DNA of 18,895 nt from a phage: the sequence record PZ049716.1. The stretch is one strand, 5' to 3'. Within the stretch, counting starts at the first letter, position 1. Every line of letters begins with the position of its first letter. The notes beneath the pieces were generated by a model. The model ran no database searches and had not been told where the DNA came from. It saw nothing but the letters and a program-made list of their open reading frames with translations. Made by a program: the position numbers and the translations under genes. Positions 6,576-17,656 of this stretch are shown here, one piece after another.

Positions 6576-9047
6576 TCAGAGTCCCAGTAGCTGGCGCACT
6601 TCGGCGCCGTTCTGTTGCAGGTAGACGAGGAAATGCTCCTGCCCGGGTTTGCTCCAGGCAGCGGCCGCCACGTCCTCGGGGCGCTGGACGGCGTACAGGT
6701 TCACGCTGTTCTTGAGGTTGGTGCTCATGCCCTTGGCCGGCTCGGCCAGGCGGGTGTTTGCCAGCCCAGGCGATGGCAAGGCCGGTGCCGGCACGCCTGC
6801 AAGGCCACCGGTCGAGTGACGCACGCGGTAGTCGTTGACTGCAGCCATGCCTCGGGCGTTGAAGTCGTGCAAAAAGTTCAGCGCACCAGGTTGCTGCACA
6901 ACAGCTGCACGGGTGACGAACTCGTAGTTCGATAGCCAAGCCGGGATGCTGTCGCTGGTGGTAGTACCAGGGCCGGTGATATGGCCACCAGTGGAAGCGG
7001 CTACTGCCGCAACCGATGCAGCACTCGAAAGCGCATTGCTGGTCGAGCTGGCCACCTTGGCGCCGGCGATCGCCGACGCCATCGCTGCAGCTGCAGATGC
7101 CCCAGCCGATGTGATTGCGGTACCCATAGCAGTCGCAGCCGTCGTGCCACCAGCTGTGATCCCTGTGCCCATTGCCGTGGCGCCGGCGGTCGATGCCGTG
7201 GTGATGGCCGTTGCCGTTGCCGTTGCCGCGGCCGTCTCAGCCGCTGCATCAGCACCACTGCCGAACATGCCCATCACACTGTTGGTCAGCCCTTCAGCCA
7301 GGTTCTTCGCGGCCATCTGCGCCAGGGCATCGGCCACGCTCTGGCCGAGGGCGGTGACGGCCTCGCGCAGGTTCATGGTGCCAGTTGCCAGGCCAGAAAG
7401 CGCCGAGGTCAAGCCGCCCTCGATGCCGGTGCGCAGGGTCTCCTGCAGGAGCGTGGTGGTAGCGAGCAGGCGGTTGGCCTGGGCGTCGAGATTGTCCAGC
7501 GCCTGCTGGGCGGAGGCGCCGATCGCACCGGGCATCTGCGCCATCTCAGCCAGCAGCGGGCGAATCTCCTGCAGCTGAGCATTCGTCTGGCGGTGGATCT
7601 CCAGAATCCGCTCGCGCGCGCCGACCTCGCTCAAAAGCCCGGCCTGCTGCTCGGCCTGCACCGATTGTTCTTGGCGGGTCTGCTCGGCCAGCACTTGGTC
7701 GTACAGACGCTGGATCTCGTTGAAGCGGATCTGCGCCTGCTCGACGTTCACCAGGCTGTTGATGATGTTCAGGCCGGCGGTGTCACCGTTGGCCTGCAGG
7801 CGCTGCATCAGTTCGCCATAGCGCTGCTCGATCTCGATCGTCAGCGCCTCGGCGTCGCGGCCCTCGGCGCGCAGCAGCTGGGCGCGCAGGCCGGCGATCT
7901 GGCGGGCGTCAGCATCGAGCTGCTGCTTGCGCTCCTCGGCAGCGATCAATGCCTGGGCGGCAATGGCTCGATCGCGCAGCGCGCCGGTCAGGCCCTTCTC
8001 GGCCAGCTCGTAGGCGCGCACCTGGTCAGTGCTCAGGCCGAGCAGCGCGGCGCTACGCTCCAGTCCGCGCACGTATTGTTCCTGCTGTCGGGTCTGCTGC
8101 TGGCTGGCCTGGGCGGCGGCCTTGCTCGCTTCGCCACTGGCGCGCTTGGCATCGATCTCCTGGGCGTAGCGCAGCAGGGCCTGTTGCTGGGCGGCGTCCA
8201 GTTCGCCCAACTCGCCGCGCTCGATGGCGTAGCGCACGCGGGCGGCTTCACTGGTGACGCCAAACAGCTCGGACTGTTTTTGCAGGTTGGTAAGGAGTTT
8301 GTCGTATTCCTTGTTCGCCGCCTTGACCTCTTCGGTCTCAGTGGTAACCGGGATCTCTACTGTCGGCTTGGCTGGCGCATTGCGCAGCACGTCCTCGATG
8401 CGCTTGATCTCGGCGCGGATCTCATCGTCGCTGACAAAGCTGATCAGCCCGTCATCGCCGAAGAAGCGCAGGCGCTCGCCGAGGTTGAACAGGCTGTCAT
8501 CAGCGAGCAGGCCGCGCAGGTCTTCGAGACGCTGCTGCAGACCGTCCACGTTCGAATCAGCGACGTCGACGCCGAGGCGGCCCAGGAAAGCGAGAAAGTT
8601 GCCGCCCTCGGCCGCAGCAGCAGCCAGGGAGCCAGTCAATCGCACCAGGCTACTGACAAGCGAATCAACACCCTGTGCGGTCGCCGGGTCGCTCAGCACC
8701 TGGGTGAGCTTCTCGATCTCTCCAGCTGACTCCTTGAGCCCGCCCTTGGCCTCCAGCAAGTCGCCAAACGCGTTCTTCAGCGCCTGGATACTGCCACCCA
8801 GGGTTTCGCGAGCCGCGCGAGCACTGCCGCCCATCTGCGTCTCTAGCTCGGCCAGAATGATCTTCTGTGCATCGAGAATCCGCCCGGACTCGACCAGGGT
8901 CTGTATCTGATCCTTCTGTTGCTCGGTGAACTGCACGCCAACGCGCGTCAGTGCGGCCACACCCTGGATGGGATCGTTGAGCGCCTTACCCAGCTGGATG
9001 GCCGAGGACTTGAGGTCTTGACCCATTGCGGTGCTCATATCGAGCAC
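6576..9047 (-). CDS. Tail tape measure protein, main segment (frame continues upstream of the GTG the track uses as start)
   Basis: 823-aa ORF; N-terminus MSTAMGQDLKSSAIQLGKALNDPIQG is the conserved tape-measure core; long coiled-coil middle; Ala/Thr/Gly-rich low-complexity C-terminus. Confidence 0.75.
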   Translation of the reverse strand: MLDMSTAMGQDLKSSAIQLGKALNDPIQGVAALTRVGVQFTEQQKDQIQTLVESGRILDAQKIILAELETQMGGSARAARETLGGSIQALKNAFGDLLEAKGGLKESAGEIEKLTQVLSDPATAQGVDSLVSSLVRLTGSLAAAAAEGGNFLAFLGRLGVDVADSNVDGLQQRLEDLRGLLADDSLFNLGERLRFFGDDGLISFVSDDEIRAEIKRIEDVLRNAPAKPTVEIPVTTETEEVKAANKEYDKLLTNLQKQSELFGVTSEAARVRYAIERGELGELDAAQQQALLRYAQEIDAKRASGEASKAAAQASQQQTRQQEQYVRGLERSAALLGLSTDQVRAYELAEKGLTGALRDRAIAAQALIAAEERKQQLDADARQIAGLRAQLLRAEGRDAEALTIEIEQRYGELMQRLQANGDTAGLNIINSLVNVEQAQIRFNEIQRLYDQVLAEQTRQEQSVQAEQQAGLLSEVGARERILEIHRQTNAQLQEIRPLLAEMAQMPGAIGASAQQALDNLDAQANRLLATTTLLQETLRTGIEGGLTSALSGLATGTMNLREAVTALGQSVADALAQMAAKNLAEGLTNSVMGMFGSGADAAAETAAATATATAITTASTAGATAMGTGITAGGTTAATAMGTAITSAGASAAAAMASAIAGAKVASSTSNALSSAASVAAVAASTGGHITGPGTTTSDSIPAWLSNYEFVTRAAVVQQPGALNFLHDFNARGMAAVNDYRVRHSTGGLAGVPAPALPSPGLANTRLAEPAKGMSTNLKNSVNLYAVQRPEDVAAAAWSKPGQEHFLVYLQQNGAEVRQLLGL

Positions 9048-9475
9048 CGTCTCCAGGGCGCGGGGAACACCTCGCGGCCGATCTTGGTGAAGGTGAGCAG
9101 CAGCGACTGAGCCGGGATCACCGCTTCATCGCCGTAGGTGGTCACCTGCTGCATGGCGCTGGCCATCTCCAGCAGTTCGTCGCGGGTCAGGCCAGCGGCA
9201 CCCTGAGTAGAGCGAAGGGTTTGTTCAAGCTGAGCAGTTACACGCTCCTGCTCGATGGTGGCGCTGATCACCGCCTTGTAAACGGCGCCGCCTGCAAAGG
9301 CAGCAACGACATTGCCGATGGTCTTGCCCAGCTTCTCCATATCGCGGCTGGACGACTGGGCCTGCTGGCCGTTGGCCTCGACGGCGCCCTCCAGCTGCTT
9401 CAGCTCACCGATCGCCTGCTGCAGATCGGCGCGGATGCGCATTGCCAGTTCGAGGTTCTTGCCTGCCAGAGCCAT
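9035..9475 (-). CDS. Tail tape measure protein, N-terminal segment (146 aa) separated from the main segment by an apparent frameshift
   Basis: ORF track; ...TRDELLEMASAMQQVTTYGDEAVIPAQSLLLTFTKIGREVFP is the first half of the same conserved core domain that continues in the 6576..9047 frame. Confidence 0.6.
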   Translation of the reverse strand: MALAGKNLELAMRIRADLQQAIGELKQLEGAVEANGQQAQSSSRDMEKLGKTIGNVVAAFAGGAVYKAVISATIEQERVTAQLEQTLRSTQGAAGLTRDELLEMASAMQQVTTYGDEAVIPAQSLLLTFTKIGREVFPAPWRRCSI

Positions 9476-9531
9476 GGGGTGCGGTCACATAGAGGGAATG
9501 TGCCGCCATGCTCGCGCGCGCGATGTGAGAT

Positions 9532-9552
9532 GTAATTTTGACGAGGCAAAAA
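9532..9552 (-). repeat. 21-bp motif copy A (plus-strand gtaattttgacgaggcaaaaa), 20/21 identical to copy B at 15483..15503
   Basis: Direct sequence comparison; both copies follow a minus-strand terminator hairpin and precede a late-gene start. Confidence 0.6.
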
Positions 9553-9572
9553 CAAACCGCCCGAAGGCGGTT
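9546..9572 (-). terminator. Intrinsic terminator-like hairpin between the chaperone frameshift product and the tape measure gene
   Basis: Minus-strand AACCGCC-TTCG-GGCGGTT stem-loop followed by TTTGTTTTTG. Confidence 0.5.
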
Positions 9573-11277: not shown

Positions 11278-11711
11278 GGGGTTACGCCTATGAAGTGTTG
11301 GGTCTGGTAAACATCCGTCCACAGCAGCGTGCTGGCGTCGTAGTCCAGCACGTCGCCCTGGAGGAACTGAAACGGCCGCCCGCCAATGATGTCCGGCGTC
11401 CAGCCCATCAGCGCGGCGCGCACCTTGCCGAGCAGCGGCGTCAGTTCCTCCACCGTCTCGGCACCTCGGGTGTCGCGGTAGTTGCGCACTGCCAAAACCA
11501 CCCCGACCGTGGCCATAGCACGCTGCCGGCCGGCCTTGGGCGCCTCGCCGTCGCCACGCTCGCGCACCAGCAACGCAAAGGCACAAGGGGTGCGGAAGTC
11601 GCGCAGGCTGGTCACCGCGCCGTACTCGGCCACGCCCTCGACGCTCTGCAGCTCGGGCACCTCGGCGCGCAGGCGGGCGATGACCAGGTTGATGTCGAAA
11701 GGGGCGCTCAT
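11274..11711 (-). CDS. Mu gp37-like head-tail joining protein
   Basis: ORF track; C-terminal pattern VRAALMGWTPD...LLWTDVYQTQHF matches the Mu gp37 family as I recall it. Confidence 0.55.
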   Translation of the reverse strand: MSAPFDINLVIARLRAEVPELQSVEGVAEYGAVTSLRDFRTPCAFALLVRERGDGEAPKAGRQRAMATVGVVLAVRNYRDTRGAETVEELTPLLGKVRAALMGWTPDIIGGRPFQFLQGDVLDYDASTLLWTDVYQTQHFIGVTP

Positions 11712-12229: not shown

Positions 12230-13018
12230 TTACTCCACGCGCTCGCCGACACGGCCGGAGAAGATGCCGCGCTCAACCTTGAGGTTGGGCTCGTTCTCCA
12301 GCTGCTCGATCTGCTCGGCCGTCAGGGCGTCCAGGGCGATGCCGAAGCCCTCGCGGGTGAAGCGAAAGCCGCAGCGGCGGAAGCCCTGCTCGGGAATCGC
12401 CACCACCCACAGCCCGTCGTAGTCGCCATCGTCGTCCAGGGCATCAACAGCATCAGTGGCACTGCCACCTGCAGGCGATGCCGCTGCCTGCGCCTCCGCA
12501 CCTGGTTGAGTCACAACGGCATCGCCCACAGACGCCTGGGGCGCGGCAGATGCCGGTTGGCTGGTGTCGGCCGCCTTATCAGGCGCGGCCGGGGCGGTAT
12601 CAGGGTCGCCAGTGGCCGGCGCAGGTGTCACCGCTAAGCCGATGCCCACCTTGGCCTCGATCTGGATAGCCAGTTGCTCAGGCGGCAACTCGGCAAAGCC
12701 CTCGATCTCGACGAACTGGCCGACCTGGCGCAGCAGCGGCTCATCGAGCTGCGACAGCGGGATCAGGTCGCCCAGGTTCTCCCCAGCAGCTTTGAGCTTG
12801 GCCAGATACGCGCCAATCTCATCACCGCCCAGGATCAAAACAGGGTGGGCTTCCTGCCCGCTCGAACCGGCGTCCGAGCCGGGTGCCTCGCTCTTGGCAG
12901 GTGCCGCCGGCTGGTTGTCCAGCTTTTCGGCGGCTGCAGGGGCAGCCGCTGGGGCTGCCTTATCTGCGCTCTTGGTGGGCGCCTTTGCAGGCGCCTTGGC
13001 GGTCGATTTATTAGCCAT
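12230..13018 (-). CDS. Ala/Pro/Lys-rich low-complexity protein (262 aa) following the major capsid gene
   Basis: ORF track; N-terminal KAPAKAPTKSADKAAPAAAPAAA repeats, acidic Ala/Pro-rich middle, structured C-terminal ~70 aa. Confidence 0.5.
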   Translation of the reverse strand: MANKSTAKAPAKAPTKSADKAAPAAAPAAAEKLDNQPAAPAKSEAPGSDAGSSGQEAHPVLILGGDEIGAYLAKLKAAGENLGDLIPLSQLDEPLLRQVGQFVEIEGFAELPPEQLAIQIEAKVGIGLAVTPAPATGDPDTAPAAPDKAADTSQPASAAPQASVGDAVVTQPGAEAQAAASPAGGSATDAVDALDDDGDYDGLWVVAIPEQGFRRCGFRFTREGFGIALDALTAEQIEQLENEPNLKVERGIFSGRVGERVE

Positions 13019-13029
13019 GCATCACCCCA

Positions 13030-13923
13030 TCAGGCCAGCCACGGGGTGACGAGCACGTCGACCACGTCGCGGTTGATGTTGGTGGCGCCGGCCGCGTTGC
13101 GCTCGGCCTTGACCACTTCCAGGGCAGTAGCACGCATGCTTGGCGGCACTACCAGCAGCTTCGGACGGATACCCAGCGGCCGCGCGTTGTCGCCCTTGAG
13201 TTCCTGCATGGCGGCATAGGCCGCGTTGAAGCTGTCGGCATCCAGCGCTTCCTTGGAGGCGTAGGCCAGCTGCCACAGGCCATAACCGACGTTCAGGCGT
13301 GCATCCACGCCCCACACGAACTCCTTGCGGTCGAACACGTTGGAGTCGGTCTCGCCGGTCTTGGAAACGAACTGATAGTTCTTGCGCTTCTGCAGGATGA
13401 TCGGCCGCATCATGCGAGTGACGTCCAGCAGGAACCACGCCGTACCGCTACCACCCTGGAAGTTGCTCACCGACGTTTCCTGGCCGTTGGCGCCGATCAC
13501 CGGGTGGTCGGTGTCGAAGAAGAACTGGCCGTCGTAGCACTTGCCGGTGAAACCGTTTTTCAGATGGGCATAAACCAGCTCGGCCGGGTGCTCCTTGGCG
13601 TCCTGGCCCAGTTGCGCCATCAGGGTGTTGTAGGTGCCGTACTGATCGTCCTCGATCGCCTCGCGGGGCACGCCCACGGTGTTCTCGAACGTCTTGTTCT
13701 TGATGCTGTAGTCATGCAGCGCCAGGTTCTGGATCACGCGGTCGCCCAGCCACTCACGGAAGCGGGTGGTAGCTCCCAGCCAGCCGTAGGTTTCGATGGC
13801 GGTGCCGGACTGCACTTCCATCACGATCTGGTCATAGTCGATCACTGCGCCCTGAAATGCGCCTTGGAACGACGCCTTATAGCCGGTGTGCAGGATGGAG
13901 AGGTTTTGCTTGTTGATGATCAT
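13030..13923 (-). CDS. Major capsid protein, Mu gpT-like
   Basis: ORF track; 297 aa, MIINKQNLSILHTGYKASFQGAFQ...; GGAG Shine-Dalgarno upstream; typical size and position after the protease/scaffold gene. Confidence 0.7.
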   Translation of the reverse strand: MIINKQNLSILHTGYKASFQGAFQGAVIDYDQIVMEVQSGTAIETYGWLGATTRFREWLGDRVIQNLALHDYSIKNKTFENTVGVPREAIEDDQYGTYNTLMAQLGQDAKEHPAELVYAHLKNGFTGKCYDGQFFFDTDHPVIGANGQETSVSNFQGGSGTAWFLLDVTRMMRPIILQKRKNYQFVSKTGETDSNVFDRKEFVWGVDARLNVGYGLWQLAYASKEALDADSFNAAYAAMQELKGDNARPLGIRPKLLVVPPSMRATALEVVKAERNAAGATNINRDVVDVLVTPWLA

Positions 13924-13937
13924 CTGAGTCTTGCTCC

Positions 13938-14345
13938 TTAGATCTCGACCCAGACGCCATCGCTATCCACATCGCGGATAACGCCGGCAACCGAGCGGGT
14001 GTTGGTGGCGGAGGTCTTAGCGACCGTCTGGTCGTCGACGATGTAGGCCGTGGCGCCGATATCGGCACGGGTGATCTCGTCGGCCGAGGCGCTGTTGACG
14101 AACGGGAACACGCCACGGCGGGTTTCCACGCGCAGATCACCAGCGGCACCGGCGGAGTTATCGACGTACTCCTGTGCAACCCCACGGGCTTTCAGGGTGG
14201 CGGAGGTGCTGCCCGGCACGGCGAAACCCGAGGCGTTGATGCACACCAGAGCACCAGCGAAAACCTTGGTGCTGCCGGCTACCGGGTCGGAGTACTGCAC
14301 GCCATCACGGCGCTTGGTGTTGCGGTCTTTGGTCAGCGCAGTCAT
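13938..14345 (-). CDS. DUF2190-like head structural / decoration-type protein (135 aa)
   Basis: ORF track; GAGGAG Shine-Dalgarno; glycine-rich beta-type pattern GVFPFVNSASADEITRADIGATAYIVDD...AGVIRDVDSDGVWVEI; sits between protease/scaffold and capsid genes. Confidence 0.45.
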   Translation of the reverse strand: MTALTKDRNTKRRDGVQYSDPVAGSTKVFAGALVCINASGFAVPGSTSATLKARGVAQEYVDNSAGAAGDLRVETRRGVFPFVNSASADEITRADIGATAYIVDDQTVAKTSATNTRSVAGVIRDVDSDGVWVEI

Positions 14346-14348
14346 GGC

Positions 14349-15452
14349 TTATTGCTCCTCGGCCTTGGCGGCCTTGAACTGTTCGGCGGTCAGGTTCATG
14401 CGCGAGCACACAGCCAGCTCGTCCTGAGTCAGCCCGGTTTTCTCGTCCGCCACCGGAGGCTCACCGCCAGTCTGGCTGCGGCTCAGCGCAGCAATCGGCT
14501 TCGCCTTGTCCAGGTAGGCAGTCAGCGCAGCGCGGTTGCTCTTGCCGAGGTCGCGTGCCCACTCTTCCATCGGTTTGGCCAGGCGGCCGTCTTCCAGGGC
14601 GGCGGTGATCTGGCTGTCGAGGTCCTTGTCATCACGCTCACCCAGGCGAGCGGTCAGCGCGGCGATCTCGGCTTGCATGCCCTCGATAGCCGACACCGGT
14701 ACGAACTTGGCGGGGTCAACAGAGGTAGCGGCCTTGGCCTTGAGGCCGGTGCAGGCTGCCAGCATGGCTTCGCCACCGGCCTTTTCATCCAGGCCCAGCA
14801 GCTTGCGCAGGTTGGTGGTGTGGGCGGAGAGCGCGGCGACTGCCTGCTCTTCGGTGGTGTTCTCGGCCAGGCCGAGGGCGGCGATCAGCGCCAGCAGCAA
14901 TTGGTTCACGGGGTTTTCCTCTGGGGAGTCATCGAAACAGCCGAACGACGCGGCGGCGCGCAGGCTGAGTTCCTGCATGCCGTCGATAGCCGGGGCATTG
15001 GTGAGCGCGCCCATCTGCACGTCCAGGACGTCGCCGGTGGTCGGGTGGTAAAGGAACACGGGGGAGAAATACTGGTACTCGCCCTCGGCGATGTACTGCG
15101 CGGCGCGGGCAGTCAGTTGCACCTGGGCAAACAGGCCTTCGCCCTCACGCCACTCCAGGGCCTGGTACCAACCTGCAGCTGGAGCGGGCTGGCCGTTCTC
15201 TTCCTTGAGCAGGGTCTGGTGTTCGTAGTCGACCACGCGCTTGTTCTTGCGAGCGTGGAAGCGCTCGATGACCTTGGTGGCCACTGCCTGGTTGATGTGC
15301 CAGGACGGCACCTTGATCTCGCGGCCATCTGCCGGCAGGAAATGGCCAGCCGGGGTCACCTGAACCCAGATGGTGTTGTCGGCAGCCGGCGCCCCCAGTA
15401 CGAAACTGCAGGCGGCGAGTGCAACGGCGAGAGGGAGGCGTTTTGTCTTCAT
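14349..15452 (-). CDS. Head maturation protease / scaffold protein, Mu I/Z-like
   Basis: Start trimmed to first ATG (MKTKRL...); VDYEHQTLLKEENGQPAPAAGWYQALEWREGEGLFAQVQLTARAAQYIAEGEYQYFSPVF matches the Mu gpI protease signature; C-terminal half is charged and helical, scaffold-like. Confidence 0.7.
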   Translation of the reverse strand: MKTKRLPLAVALAACSFVLGAPAADNTIWVQVTPAGHFLPADGREIKVPSWHINQAVATKVIERFHARKNKRVVDYEHQTLLKEENGQPAPAAGWYQALEWREGEGLFAQVQLTARAAQYIAEGEYQYFSPVFLYHPTTGDVLDVQMGALTNAPAIDGMQELSLRAAASFGCFDDSPEENPVNQLLLALIAALGLAENTTEEQAVAALSAHTTNLRKLLGLDEKAGGEAMLAACTGLKAKAATSVDPAKFVPVSAIEGMQAEIAALTARLGERDDKDLDSQITAALEDGRLAKPMEEWARDLGKSNRAALTAYLDKAKPIAALSRSQTGGEPPVADEKTGLTQDELAVCSRMNLTAEQFKAAKAEEQ

Positions 15453-15482
15453 GCCGGCAGCTTGGCGCTGCGGGCCGGGCAA

Positions 15483-15503
15483 GTAATTTTGACGGGGCAA
15501 AAA
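15483..15503 (-). repeat. 21-bp motif copy B (plus-strand gtaattttgacggggcaaaaa)
   Basis: Lies ~30 nt upstream of the protease/scaffold ATG and just downstream of the cassette terminator. Confidence 0.6.
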
Positions 15504-15529
15504 TCTCGCTGGCTGGCGAGGGCATTACG

Positions 15530-15561
15530 GCAGGAAATAAAGCCCGGCGTGAGGCCGGGCT
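15530..15561 (-). terminator. Intrinsic terminator ending the accessory cassette
   Basis: Minus-strand 8-bp GC stem (AGCCCGGC / GCCGGGCT, loop 5 nt) followed by TTATTT. Confidence 0.6.
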
Positions 15562-15569
15562 AGGGAGGG

Positions 15570-15887
15570 TCAGCGCACGCGCAGGGCGTGGTCGGCGGGG
15601 TAGTCCAGCAGGGCCAGGGTGTTGTGCAGGGCTTGATCGGCCAGCTCCTGCACTTTGTAGGCCTGCTGTTCCAGGTCGCCGGCCAGCACGTCCACCAGTT
15701 GGCACAGGTCGCTGCGCGACACATGGTCGAGCATGGCCGGGGTTTCGTCGCCTTCGGCATCCACCGGCAGCGGCACGGCCAGCAGTTGTTTCAGGGCGCT
15801 CAGGGCGCCCATGCGTTCGGCCAGGCGGCGCGCTGCAAAAGCGTTGATGGCCGCCACCTGGTCGGGGCGCAGCTCATGCAGGCTCAT
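15570..15887 (-). CDS. Acidic hypothetical protein (105 aa), no recognisable family; candidate accessory / anti-defence effector
   Basis: ORF track; ATG overlaps the stop of the Bro-N gene (ATGA at 15884-15887); about 16 Asp/Glu against 8 Lys/Arg; followed by a terminator. Confidence 0.5.
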   Translation of the reverse strand: MSLHELRPDQVAAINAFAARRLAERMGALSALKQLLAVPLPVDAEGDETPAMLDHVSRSDLCQLVDVLAGDLEQQAYKVQELADQALHNTLALLDYPADHALRVR

Positions 15888-16597
15888 TGCTCACCATCCT
15901 TGCTGCTCAGCGGCAGCAGGGCGACGGCGGCGGCCTGTTGCAGGTGCCGGCCAATGCGGTCGAGCTGGTCGGCCAGCGGCTGGTTGTGCGCCGAGTTGCA
16001 GAAGCGCTGGGCCAGGCGCTGCTGCTGCTCGATCAGCCGCGCCTGCTCGTTCTCCAGGTGCTTGGCCGCCACGGCGGCCAGCAGCTCGGGGCTGCACTGT
16101 GGGCTGCCGGCGGCGGGGCTGAACTGGTACTTGGCGTGCAGCAGCAGGTTGACCGTGGGTTTGGACAACCCCAGCTGGCGGGCGATATTGGCCTGGCTCC
16201 AGCCGCCCACGAACAACTCCAGCACCCGCCGTTCTATTTCGCGAGTGACCAGCACGCGGCCGCTGGGCGCTTTCGGTGGAGCCATAAGGGCATCGAGGAT
16301 GTCCAGCACCCACTTGCGGAACTCGGCTGCCACCGGCGTGCGGGCGAACATGCCCAGCAGGTGGGCGCCGCGCAGGGAGAATATACGGGTTTGTTGAATA
16401 CCGCCGGCAGTCTGCAGATCGACTAAGGCGGTCATGCCGTCGGTGAACTCCGCAGCATTCTTTTCGTACAGCTTCCAGATAGCGTGATCCGGCCGTGCAT
16501 ACCCCAAGGCACCTCCGATCTGGAGGCCCCTTAGCCAATGCTGGCCATTGCGGTCGATAACGTCGAACTGGGTATCGCGGAAGGTGAGCGCTTTCAT
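15884..16597 (-). CDS. Bro-N domain protein with central helix-turn-helix and C-terminal coiled coil (237 aa); putative regulator / antirepressor
   Basis: ORF track; GGAG Shine-Dalgarno 7 nt before ATG 16597; N-terminus TFRDTQFDVIDRNGQHWLRGLQIGGALGY...EF...GGIQQTRIFSLRGAHLLGMF...AAEFRKWV matches Bro-N; GWSQANIARQLGLSKPTVNLLLH is HTH-like. Confidence 0.6.
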   Translation of the reverse strand: MKALTFRDTQFDVIDRNGQHWLRGLQIGGALGYARPDHAIWKLYEKNAAEFTDGMTALVDLQTAGGIQQTRIFSLRGAHLLGMFARTPVAAEFRKWVLDILDALMAPPKAPSGRVLVTREIERRVLELFVGGWSQANIARQLGLSKPTVNLLLHAKYQFSPAAGSPQCSPELLAAVAAKHLENEQARLIEQQQRLAQRFCNSAHNQPLADQLDRIGRHLQQAAAVALLPLSSKDGEQ

Positions 16598-16605
16598 GGT
16601 GGGAC

Positions 16606-16680
16606 TCCGTAAGGTTCAGTCAATGCCTGATGGATTAGTAGCCCATCAGGTGGTCGGGACTCAACTAGGGCCTTACGGAC
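16606..16680 (-). promoter_or_regulatory. Nested inverted repeats and promoter-like elements immediately upstream of the Bro-N gene
   Basis: Outer inverted repeat ccgtaagg (16607-16614) / ccttacgg (16671-16678); inner perfect palindrome cctgatgg-9 nt-ccatcagg (16626-16650); minus-strand -35 TTGAGT (16659-16664) and -10 TACTAA (16635-16640) with 18-nt spacer; the 3' arm of the outer repeat abuts the Shine-Dalgarno sequence. Confidence 0.45.
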
Positions 16681-16730
16681 CCCTGGCGCTTCTTCCCCCG
16701 AAGGGTGTTGTATCCGCGCTCTCATCCCGA

Positions 16731-16762
16731 CCATAAAAGCAAACGCCAGCCCGAGGGCTGGC
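16731..16762 (-). terminator. Intrinsic terminator inside the G / Bro-N intergenic region
   Basis: Minus-strand GCCAGCCC-TC-GGGCTGGC stem followed by GTTTGCTTTTAT. Confidence 0.5.
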
Positions 16763-16812
16763 GGCAGGCGGCGTGGTCAGTGCCGTGGCTGCCGTAAGGT
16801 TTAGTGCCTAAA

Positions 16813-16841
16813 ACACTAGCCCAGCGTTACCACCTTGGCAA
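16813..16841 (-). promoter_or_regulatory. Sigma-70-like promoter candidate on the minus strand
   Basis: -35 TTGCCA (16836-16841), 17-nt spacer, -10 TAGTGT (16813-16818); lies ~50-70 nt upstream of the terminator at 16731-16762. Confidence 0.3.
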
Positions 16842-16860
16842 CAGCTTTTCCATTTAAGGC

Positions 16861-16960
16861 GTCGCCGAAACGGCGACACCCGGCGCGGATGCCGCCAAAG
16901 GGGTGGTCAAAATGGCGACCCCTTTTGATGACACTACATTCGTCGCCGTTTTGGCGACGA
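16861..16960. promoter_or_regulatory. Array of operator-like palindromes with GGCGAC arms
   Basis: gtcgccg-aaa-cggcgac (16861-16877), half-site ggtcaaaatggcgacc (16905-16920), tcgtcgcc-gtttt-ggcgacga (16940-16960); centre-to-centre spacing ~40 bp. Confidence 0.45.
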
Positions 16961-17167
16961 AACCCCCAAGAAGGAAGCTCGTATTTTCGCCGGTTTTCCC
17001 GGTTTTCCCAGGCTCTGGCCCAAAACTCACTCCAGGCCTGATGCAGAGCCGTGTTTATAAACGCCCAAACAGCCCCGGAAAGGGCCAGAGGCACCCGGAT
17101 ACATACAACGGCAGCCCCCTGGGGGCCTTAAAACGCTTCTACGGGCCTTTGCGGCGGTTTGCGGTTT

Positions 17168-17656
17168 TCAGCCCTGCAAACGGGCCTGCAGGTGATCGCG
17201 GGCGATGGCGATGATCTCCGCTGCGTCATCATCGGAGATACCGAGGAACGGCCGCGCCGGAATGTCGCCCCAGGGGATGGGCGCGCCGCGACGGGTTTTG
17301 CCGAAGGCGCCCTTGAGCGCGCCGAACTGATGCACCGCACCGTATACCCGATCGGTGCCCACCAGCAGGGTGGCGCCTTCGACCTGCGGGAAGATCTGCC
17401 GCACAAGATCGCCACGCCGCTGCAGGATCTTGCCAGGGTTCGGCGACTTGGTTTCCAGGTAGCGCGGGCTGAGTGACTTCCAGGTCTGGCCATCCGGCCC
17501 GCGTTGCGCGCTGAAGCGGTCGCGGGTGCTGTTGACCAGCGCCTCGCCGATGTCCAGCAGCATCGGCCTTGGGTCAGTCAGCTCGGCCAAGGCGCCGCGA
17601 ATAGCCGACAACACGGCGGCGTTGTCGAACTCCAGCTCTACCCGTGCGCCGCTCAC
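17168..17656 (-). CDS. Virion morphogenesis protein, Mu G-like (162 aa)
   Basis: ORF track (GTG start overlapping the upstream stop); LLDIGEALVNSTRDRFSAQRGPDGQTWKSLSPRYLETK...VGTDRVYGAVHQFG matches the Mu gpG signature. Confidence 0.7.
   Translation of the reverse strand: MSGARVELEFDNAAVLSAIRGALAELTDPRPMLLDIGEALVNSTRDRFSAQRGPDGQTWKSLSPRYLETKSPNPGKILQRRGDLVRQIFPQVEGATLLVGTDRVYGAVHQFGALKGAFGKTRRGAPIPWGDIPARPFLGISDDDAAEIIAIARDHLQARLQG

What the first reader, a model, noticed from the sequence alone, without database searches (positions are those of the whole stretch)
15483..15503. Conserved 21-bp motif repeated downstream of terminators and upstream of two late genes (second copy at 9532-9552)
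Plus-strand gtaattttgacgRggcaaaaa occurs twice with one mismatch. Each copy follows a minus-strand terminator hairpin and lies ~30-55 nt upstream of a late-gene start (protease/scaffold at 15452, tape measure at 9475). Neither copy has a clear sigma-70 -35 element. This resembles activator-dependent late promoters of Mu-type phages, or a conserved re-initiation or processing signal.
Basis: partly seen in the sequence, partly recalled or inferred. Interest (0 to 1): 0.6.

Follow-up and report, generated by a model that had tools for sequence, protein, structure and literature searches.

The report
Mor-type late promoters of a Pseudomonas prophage
The repeated 21-bp motif is real and is most likely the binding site of the phage's own Mor-type activator inside two of the three late promoters of a B3-like, Mu-type Pseudomonas prophage; this is a well-understood kind of switch not previously spelled out for this phage group.

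Summary
GTAATTTTGACGRGGCAAAAA occurs at 9532-9552 and 15483-15503, with none expected by chance. On the coding (minus) strand it reads TTTTTGCCYCGTCAAAATTAC. It lies 30 nt before the Mu-I-like protease ATG and 56 nt before the tape-measure ATG, each time after a terminator-like hairpin.

Related Pseudomonas prophages carry the box at three places: before the lysis operon, the protease gene and the tape-measure gene. A loose pattern for the box finds exactly three sites in each of the complete genomes of phages JBD25 and Fc02. The layout is fixed: a 16-bp imperfect dyad plus conserved AC, 18-19 GC-rich bases, a -10-like hexamer (A at position 2, T at 6), then about 6 bases to a predicted start.

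With the predicted start, the dyad centre falls at -42.5, against -43.5 for phage Mu Mor and C sites. The box changes in concert at all three sites between phages. Those changes track only the Mor-family activator and its recognition helix. Published RNA-seq of Fc02 shows three late transcription clusters.

Verdict: these are Mu-type, activator-dependent late promoters, a new member of a known kind. Binding and start sites are inferred. A secondary prediction is that the protease mRNA is leaderless.

The parts
15483..15503 (-). Late-promoter box, protease site ('I'): TTTTTGCCCCGTCAAAATTAC. Positions 2-17 are an imperfect dyad (TTTTG-N6-CAAAA). Positions 17-21 plus the next base form a poor -35-like hexamer (ATTACT). 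Predicted span -51 to -31.
   Evidence: exact location, chance. (invariant in many relatives while the upstream flank diverges). (1.86 bits per position against 0.25 upstream).
15459..15464 (-). -10-like hexamer CAAGCT (A at position 2, T at position 6), 18 nt after the box and 6 nt before the protease ATG.
   Evidence: The hexamer is CAAGCT, CAACCT, CACTCT or CAATCT at the same place in all relatives. Positions 2 and 6 carry 1.88 bits each.
15450..15452 (-). ATG of the protease/scaffold gene. Its A (15452) is the predicted +1, which would make the mRNA leaderless. No Shine-Dalgarno sequence lies upstream.
   Evidence: box-to-ATG distance 30-31 nt in all specificity classes. (no SD, whereas most neighbouring late genes have one). 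(RS138 has CACGAT-N6-ATG). The start site is inferred, not measured.
14349..15452 (-). Mu I-like head protease/scaffold gene, first gene of the second late transcription unit.
   Evidence: Pfam Mu-like_Pro, E=2.5e-103.
15541..15561 (-). Terminator-like hairpin ending the accessory insertion upstream of the protease promoter.
   Evidence: Present only in genomes that carry the insertion.
9532..9552 (-). Late-promoter box, tape-measure site ('T'): TTTTTGCCTCGTCAAAATTAC.
9508..9513 (-). -10-like hexamer GAGCAT, 18 nt after the box. The predicted +1 is the A at 9501 on the minus strand, giving a 26-nt leader to the ATG at 9475.
   Evidence: The hexamer is GAGCAT, GAACAT or GAGGAT at the same spacing in relatives. 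The start site is inferred.
9555..9572 (-). Terminator-like hairpin AACCGCCTTCGGGCGGTT after the tail-chaperone genes. Its T tract merges with the T run of the box.
   Evidence: Fc02 RNA-seq reports that the second late cluster ends at a rho-independent terminator (PMC9936078).
6576..9475 (-). Tape-measure gene, first gene of the third late unit. It is split in this window by a 1-nt deletion at 9062-9065.

Best explanation
The two motif copies are the activator-binding halves of two of the three late promoters of a B3-like, Mu-type transposable prophage of Pseudomonas.

Each promoter has the same layout. A 16-bp imperfect dyad (TTTTGCCnCGTCAAAA) runs into a poor -35-like element (ATTACn, of which only the AC is invariant). 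Seventeen base pairs separate that element from a -10-like hexamer (sAnnmT). The predicted start lies about 7 nt after the hexamer.

The proposed mechanism is as follows. A dimer of the phage's single Mor/C-family activator binds the dyad, centred near -42.5. Mor is the last gene of the early operon and lies outside this window. Bound Mor recruits or remodels host sigma-70 RNA polymerase. This switches on three units only after early expression: lysis and packaging, head (from protease I), and tail (from the tape measure). Terminators in front of the boxes, where present, insulate the units.

Shown here: the sequence architecture, its conservation, three copies per genome, and co-variation with Mor. 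Inferred: Mor binding, sigma-70 use, the exact start sites, and that the protease mRNA starts at its own AUG.
For: 1. The motif is real and non-random.
2. It is invariant in 25 IMG/VR stretches and in several Pseudomonas genomes while the flanks diverge. Across 60 unique class A instances, information content is 1.86 bits per position in the box, 0.25 upstream, and 1.88 at hexamer positions 2 and 6.
3. A third copy precedes the lysis operon in relatives. No copy was found in the early regions of L031-L043. A loose box pattern hits exactly three sites, all on the late-gene strand, in complete JBD25 and Fc02.
4. The geometry matches Mu. Mor and C bind a 16-bp imperfect dyad centred at -43.5 that overlaps a poor -35, with a recognisable -10 (PMC2582627; PMC4287176). 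Here the dyad centre is 30.5 bp from the first base of the hexamer. That compares with 31.5 bp in Mu, if Mu's -10 occupies -12 to -7.
5. The box switches class in concert at all three sites within a genome. Class A is TTTTTGCCnCGTCmAAATTAC, class B is TTTyCGGnnnnCCGAAAAGAC and class C is TTTTCGCnCCTTCCAAAAkAC. The AC, spacer length and hexamer stay constant.
6. Only Mor tracks the class. Spearman correlation between protein distance and box distance is 0.87 for Mor and 0.16-0.61 for ten other early proteins. Near-identical Mor pairs differ by at most 1 box base. Near-identical pairs of any other protein differ by up to 7-10. The Mor recognition helix changes with the box. In L040, L035 and L038 the promoter flanks are nearly the same, but box and Mor are swapped.
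7. The activator is a bona fide Mor-family protein: Pfam PF08765 E=6e-30 and Mu Mor structure 1RR7 E=1.7e-5. The closest full-length relative with the same insertion carries it (L163).
8. Fc02 RNA-seq shows the early operon, including mor, coming on first. Three late clusters follow: holin and packaging; structural genes ending at a terminator; and a third cluster (PMC9936078).
9. Ralstonia phage RS138 has a different shared box (ACTCCCTGACA-N33-hexamer) before its lysis and protease genes, downstream of its annotated late activator. The architecture is the same with another specificity.
Against: No transcription start, footprint or reporter data exist for this phage group, and the Fc02 paper does not map late promoters. 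The Mor gene is not in the window and was seen only in relatives. The -10-like hexamers are weak: only A2 and T6 are conserved. The -42.5 position depends on an assumed start site. Co-variation is correlative, and the genomes are phylogenetically related, so pairs are not independent. B3-like phages have one Mor/C homologue where Mu has two, so the cascade differs from Mu. Another factor that depends on Mor cannot be formally excluded.
Confidence: 0.85

Rival explanations
1. The box is the operator of a different regulator, phage or host, rather than of Mor. Candidates are the IclR-like winged-helix early protein, the Ner-like protein, the c repressor, the small divergent ORF next to the lysis promoter, or a host nucleoid protein.
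For: Several DNA-binding proteins are encoded in the early and immunity region. A dyad only says that a dimer binds. Conserved T and A runs could attract host bending proteins.
Against: The winged-helix protein is 94-100% identical in genomes with different boxes (L035, L038, L041). For all ten other early proteins tested, near-identical pairs occur with boxes differing by 7-10 bases. The c repressor and the divergent ORF are not even conserved among class A genomes. A host factor would not explain concerted class switching among phages of one genus.
Confidence: 0.07
2. The box acts at the RNA level, as a processing, anti-termination or re-initiation hairpin in read-through transcripts.
For: The sequence is a palindrome, and the class B box would form a 7-8 bp hairpin. 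Two copies in the window follow terminators.
Against: The class A box alone does not fold better than shuffles (z = -1.47 and -0.25). There is no Rfam match. The lysis copy sits between divergent genes, so no co-directional transcript crosses it. The fixed spacing to an A2/T6 hexamer and the invariant asymmetric AC are promoter features. Terminators upstream are not conserved.
Confidence: 0.03
3. The boxes are module-boundary or linker sequences that promote recombination between phage modules, or sites for transposition or packaging.
For: They lie exactly at module junctions (lysis/packaging, head, tail). These phages are highly mosaic.
Against: A recombination linker should be shared between phages. 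Instead the box differs between near-identical backbones and changes in concert with one gene located at the far end of the genome. Strict orientation and strict spacing to a -10-like hexamer and to the protease ATG are unexplained by recombination.
Confidence: 0.03

Closest known systems
[quoted passage not shown]
   Same: Several promoters head the late operons, one before lysis and one before gene I. Each has a recognisable -10 and no proper -35. A 16-bp imperfect dyad for a dimeric Mor/C-family activator is centred near -43 and overlaps the -35 region, and the bases just downstream of the dyad matter (PMC2582627). In Mu a terminator also sits just before the Plys activator site, as at the two window sites.
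   Different: The box sequence is unrelated to Mu's. The third unit starts at the tape measure of a siphovirus tail, not at baseplate gene P, and there is no mom. Only one Mor/C homologue is present, encoded at the far end of an early arm that is inverted relative to Mu. Mu gene I has a leader with a Shine-Dalgarno sequence, while here the ATG sits at the predicted +1. The predicted centre is -42.5 rather than -43.5.
Phage Mu middle promoter Pm with activator Mor
   Same: The activator is the last gene of the early operon, after gemA. It binds a dyad at -51 to -36, centred at -43.5, in a promoter lacking a -35 (PMC4287176). Mor and C do not cross-activate, which is a precedent for the specificity classes seen here.
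   Different: In Mu, Mor drives one middle promoter that makes C. Here the Mor homologue appears to drive the late operons directly, giving a two-tier rather than a three-tier cascade (inferred).
B3-like Pseudomonas aeruginosa phages (Fc02, JBD25; beetrevirus-type)
   Same: Same genome organisation and same three box positions, with a class C box. Fc02 RNA-seq shows three late clusters, the second ending at a rho-independent terminator (PMC9936078).
   Different: Mor is only about 59% identical and the box differs (TTTTCGCyCCTTCCAAAAkAC). The window's phage shares no megablast-level DNA with any deposited phage except a capsid segment of Ralstonia phage RS138. I found no paper describing the late-promoter box. 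The B3 genome paper could not be read.
P2/P4 Ogr/Delta-dependent late promoters
   Same: Functionally analogous: several late operons are each switched on by one small phage activator bound upstream of a poor -35.
   Different: The activator family is different (zinc-finger Ogr) and the site is different (TGT-N12-ACA near -55, from my own knowledge). By inspection the box does not fit that pattern, and no Ogr-like gene was seen in the B3-like genomes.

Membership tests
Mu-type Mor/C-dependent late promoter | Recognisable -10 hexamer but no consensus -35 | tested here: met
   No sigma-70 consensus promoter is called at either site. A hexamer with conserved A2 and T6 lies 18-19 nt after the box in all classes. 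The best -35-like hexamer (ATTACn, AAGACn) matches 3-4 of 6 positions at 17-bp spacing, by inspection.
Mu-type Mor/C-dependent late promoter | [quoted passage not shown] | tested here: met
   The dyad is TTTTG-N6-CAAAA in class A and a perfect 18-bp palindrome in class B, with the same centre at box position 9.5. The centre is 30.5 bp from the hexamer, against 31.5 bp in Mu if Mu's -10 occupies -12 to -7 (PMC2582627). The absolute position of -42.5 assumes the predicted start.
Mu-type Mor/C-dependent late promoter | Several co-oriented copies heading the late operons, including lysis and gene I | tested here: met
   Two copies in the window. Three per genome in relatives, at lysis, protease and tape measure. 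A loose box pattern gives exactly three hits in complete JBD25 and Fc02.
Mu-type Mor/C-dependent late promoter | A cognate Mor/C-family activator encoded by the same phage | tested here: met
   Not in the window. Relatives, including the closest full-length one (L163), carry a Mor gene at the end of the early operon: PF08765 E=6e-30 and 1RR7 E=1.7e-5. It co-varies with the box.
Mu-type Mor/C-dependent late promoter | Activator binding to the dyad and activator-dependent initiation by host RNA polymerase | not testable with these tools
   This needs EMSA or footprinting, start-site mapping and mor-dependent reporters. The only indirect support is the early-then-three-late-clusters RNA-seq of Fc02 (PMC9936078).
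Intrinsic (rho-independent) terminator, for the upstream hairpins | G+C-rich stem-loop followed by a T tract on the coding strand | tested here: met
   Minus strand 15561-15541 (8 pairs, 7 GC, tail TTATTTCC) and 9572-9555 (7 pairs, tail TGTTTTTGCC). The hairpins also appear in the folds.
Structured RNA element or processing signal | A stable, conserved RNA structure located inside a transcript | tested here: not met
   Fold z-scores are -1.47 and -0.25. No Rfam family matches. The lysis copy is not downstream of any co-directional gene.
Sigma-54 promoter | GG and GC elements at -24 and -12 with fixed spacing (TGGCAC-N5-TTGCW) | tested here: not met
   By inspection. The TTGC in the box has no GG at the required distance upstream, and the upstream flank is not conserved between sites.

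The most novel reading that the evidence does not exclude
Mor and its box form at least four to six mutually orthogonal specificity pairs. These pairs are swapped horizontally among otherwise near-identical B3-like prophages, with all three promoters re-tuned in concert. They would act as 'late-transcription types' that stop co-resident or superinfecting relatives from cross-activating each other. In addition, the protease/scaffold mRNA would be leaderless, starting at its own AUG, across B3-like phages and RS138. That would couple promoter strength directly to scaffold and protease dosage.
Probability: 0.4. Interest if true: 0.55.

Novelty: new member of a known kind. Interest (0 to 1): 0.4.

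Why it matters
The finding gives base-level, testable late promoters for a large and poorly studied group of Mu-like Pseudomonas prophages. It explains the three late transcription clusters seen by RNA-seq in Fc02. It links a recognition-helix variant of Mor to each box variant. Those natural activator/promoter pairs are a ready-made set for studying how Mor/C proteins read DNA. They are also candidates for orthogonal switches in Pseudomonas. The mechanism itself follows the established Mu paradigm, so the result is useful rather than surprising.

Tried and rejected
- Megablast of the head region against deposited phages found only a 74%-identical capsid segment of Ralstonia phage RS138.
- RS138 lacks the motif within 3 mismatches. 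It proved to have its own shared box.
- blastn of the protease promoter against deposited phages gave no match.
- Looking for the activator next to the lysis genes, where C sits in Mu, found no Mor-family hit among ten ORFs upstream of the lysis promoter in L022. Mor is at the other end of the early arm.
- The B3 genome paper (PMC516594) is not held. Literature searches found no description of this box.
- I considered a -10 inside the box (CAAAAT or AAATTA). I rejected it because class B boxes have no A2/T6 hexamer there, whereas the downstream hexamer is kept in all classes.
- Sigma-54 and P2 Ogr-type patterns were rejected by inspection.
- The RNA hairpin idea was rejected.
- Three exact matches in non-Pseudomonas genomes (L148, L149, L151) lack the G+C-rich spacer and hexamer. 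I take them as chance hits of an AT-rich 20-mer in 596 Gb.

Full report
**Observation**

The window is G+C-rich (about 65%) and its genes run on the minus strand. The plus-strand 21-mer GTAATTTTGACGRGGCAAAAA occurs at 9532-9552 and 15483-15503 with one difference. Allowing three mismatches finds nothing else, and none of 200 shuffles reached two matches.

Read on the coding strand, the motif is TTTTTGCCYCGTCAAAATTAC. It ends 30 nt before the ATG at 15452 of a Mu I-like protease/scaffold gene (Pfam Mu-like_Pro, E=2.5e-103). It ends 56 nt before the ATG at 9475, the start of the tape measure.

Terminator-like hairpins lie just upstream on the same strand, at 15561-15541 and 9572-9555. The consensus scan finds no sigma-70 promoter at either place. 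The observation therefore stands as written.

**Context**

The window is the late region of a Mu-like prophage. It encodes F-like, G-like, protease I, major head T and gp36-like proteins, followed by a siphovirus tail with major tail protein, chaperone and tape measure.

An exact search of one genome per species finds the motif in several Pseudomonas species. One of them, P. chaetocerotis, is 98% identical to window 12876-15506.

The genome organisation of relatives is that of B3-like phages. The late genes run one way. The immunity region and an early operon run the other way. The early operon holds a Ner-like gene, transposase, B-like ATPase, gemA and, last, a Mor-family gene. This matches JBD25 and Fc02.

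**Conservation and copy number**

The exact motif occurs in 25 stretches of IMG/VR contigs, mostly prophages of 37-41 kb. In these the upstream flank varies freely while the 21-mer is invariant.

A contig that encodes an identical protease (L026) has a third copy about 100 nt upstream of the holin gene. That copy sits between divergent genes.

Protease-anchored loci from 39 relatives show three co-oriented copies wherever the sequence reaches far enough. They lie about 8.4 kb upstream (lysis), at -51 from the protease ATG, and 5.3-7 kb downstream (tape measure). The early regions of L031-L043 hold no copy.

A loose pattern ([TC]TTT-N10-AAA-N-[GT]AC) hits only the two known sites in the window. 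It hits exactly three sites in each of the complete genomes of JBD25 and Fc02.

**Architecture**

Every instance has the same layout: box, then 18-19 G+C-rich bases, then a hexamer with A at position 2 and T at position 6, then 6 bases, then usually an A.

| Site | Hexamers seen |
|---|---|
| Protease | CAAGCT, CAACCT, CACTCT, CAATCT |
| Tape measure | GAGCAT, GAACAT, GAGGAT |
| Lysis | GAAGCT, GATGAT |

Over 60 unique class A instances the information content is:

| Region | Bits per position |
|---|---|
| Box | 1.86 |
| 45 bases upstream | 0.25 |
| Spacer | 0.80 |
| Hexamer positions 2 and 6 | 1.88 each |

Box positions 2-17 form an imperfect dyad, TTTTGcCnCGtCAAAA. In another specificity class the dyad is a perfect 18-bp palindrome with the same centre.

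The last bases of the box plus the next one (ATTACn, AAGACn) lie 17 bp from the hexamer. They match TTGACA at only 3-4 positions. The AC is invariant in nearly all classes. That is what one expects if the AC is read by the host sigma factor while the dyad is read by a phage protein (inference).

If the start is 7 nt after the hexamer, the box spans -51 to -31 and the dyad is centred at -42.5.

Mu C and Mor bind 16-bp imperfect dyads centred at -43.5 that overlap a missing -35. The bases just downstream of the dyad are also required (PMC2582627; PMC4287176; bioRxiv 10.1101/2025.05.02.651988).

**The trans factor**

Between phages the box changes, and it changes at all three sites together.

| Class or locus | Box | Mor recognition helix |
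|---|---|---|
| A (window type) | TTTTTGCCnCGTCmAAATTAC | xTENAIYKLLKR |
| B | TTTyCGGnnnnCCGAAAAGAC | xTEDWIYSxLR |
| C (P. aeruginosa B3-like) | TTTTCGCnCCTTCCAAAAkAC | LTPSSIYKLLKR (seen in L047) |
| L035 | TTTTTGCCCCAGCAAAAATAC | VTENFIYRTMRK |
| L075, L093 | TTTTGTCCGCGTTCAAATTAC | MSVRGIYKL... |

Among 22 early and immunity proteins, only Mor separates the classes. It is 68-95% identical within class A genomes and 28-33% identical in class B genomes. By contrast the winged-helix protein, GemA, transposase and others stay at 84-94% in L041, a class B genome.

Across 21 genomes the pairwise Mor distance correlates with box distance at Spearman 0.87. For ten control proteins the range is 0.16-0.61. 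Near-identical Mor pairs never differ by more than one box base. Near-identical pairs of every control protein differ by up to 7-10.

L040, L035 and L038 have almost the same lysis-promoter flanks but different boxes. Their Mor identities to the reference are 95%, 30% and 41%.

The Mor homologue matches Pfam Mor at E=6e-30 and the Mu Mor structure 1RR7 at E=1.7e-5. The closest full-length relative that shares the window's accessory insertion carries a class A Mor.

Ralstonia phage RS138 was the only deposited phage with DNA similarity. It has an unrelated shared box (ACTCCCTGACA-N33-hexamer) before its lysis and protease genes. This shows the architecture is general and the specificity is phage-specific.

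**Experimental support from the literature**

In Fc02, strand-specific RNA-seq after thermo-induction shows the early operon, including mor, rising first. Three clusters then appear on the late strand. The first starts at the holin and endolysin genes. The second contains virion structural genes and ends at a rho-independent terminator. A third follows (PMC9936078).

The three Fc02 boxes at 11702, 20100 and 25607 lie in front of the holin, protease and tape-measure genes. The third is directly preceded by a hairpin. That paper does not define the late promoters.

**Rival explanations**

- *RNA element.* This is unlikely. The box does not fold better than shuffles. There is no Rfam hit. The lysis copy has no co-directional upstream gene.
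- *Another regulator.* This is disfavoured by the control-protein analysis.
- *A recombination linker.* This would not change in concert with a distant gene.
- *Sigma-54 and P2 Ogr-type patterns.* Neither fits, by inspection.

**A secondary inference**

At the protease site the ATG lies 30-31 nt after the box, that is 6-7 nt after the hexamer. This holds in every class even where the spacer sequence is unrelated, and also in RS138.

There is no Shine-Dalgarno sequence there, unlike most neighbouring late genes. The protease/scaffold mRNA is therefore predicted to be leaderless. Mu's own gene I has a leader with a Shine-Dalgarno sequence. This inference is unmeasured.

**Limits**

No start site, binding or genetic test was possible. 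Mor is outside the window. The co-variation is correlative among related genomes. I could not read the B3 genome paper, so prior description of the box cannot be excluded.

**Verdict**

The motif is a genuine, strongly conserved cis-element. Its best explanation is the Mor-binding part of Mu-type late promoters (confidence about 0.85). This is a new member of a known kind, of moderate interest. The co-evolving Mor/box classes and the predicted leaderless protease gene are the parts worth testing.

Noticed in passing
window 9062-9065 (tape-measure gene 6576-9475, minus strand): The tape-measure gene is split into a 146-aa ORF and an 823-aa ORF by a 1-nt deletion in a homopolymer. The window has C4 on the coding strand where relatives L110 and L011 have C5 and intact genes of 968 and 966 aa. 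It is either an assembly error or an inactivating mutation in this prophage.
   Followed up: yes
window 15541-17128 (between the G-like gene 17168-17656 and the protease promoter): An accessory insertion is absent from most relatives. It holds a 92-aa ORF (16816-17094), a terminator-like hairpin (16763-16744), a 237-aa Bro-N plus HTH protein (15884-16597), a 105-aa ORF (15570-15887) and the terminator-like hairpin 15561-15541. The 237-aa protein matches PHROG 'anti-repressor Ant' at E=7e-39 and has a Sigma70_r4_2-like HTH. RS138 has a different insert at the same junction, and in Mu this junction holds the gyrase site.
   Followed up: partly
window 9514-9531; lysis and tape-measure promoters in L108-L143, L173, L174: The spacer between the box and the -10-like hexamer carries an alternating (CG)3-6 tract in 47 of 65 unique lysis and tape-measure promoters, across specificity classes. 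The background is 3% of random 20-mers from these phages. Protease promoters show it in 1 of 16. This may relate to DNA untwisting by the activator. It remains unexplained.
   Followed up: partly
window 9476-9501 (predicted tape-measure leader): The predicted 26-nt leader of the tape-measure gene is C-rich and has no Shine-Dalgarno sequence. The lysis operon's first gene in L026 has GGAG. The sequence GCACCCCATGG is shared just before the start codons of the holin (L026) and the tape measure.
   Followed up: no
L032:17232-17837 (early operon of a relative, outside the window): A 201-aa early protein between DUF3164 and GemA matches the SutA RNA-polymerase-binding domain (PF20661, E=9e-8). It may be a phage-encoded RNAP-binding factor. 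It is present in only some relatives.
   Followed up: no
L027 (Ralstonia phage RS138) 12203-12275 and 20513-20569: RS138 has its own shared late box, ACTCCCTGACA-N33-(GAGACT or CACGAT), before the endolysin and protease genes. CACGAT-N6-ATG at the protease gives the same leaderless geometry.
   Followed up: partly
L147:792-812 (Pseudomonas sp. C11): A lysis-type class A box (TTTTTGCCGCGTCCAAATTAC) is followed by an unrelated, non-G+C-rich spacer and CAAATA. It may be a prophage remnant or a different target.
   Followed up: no
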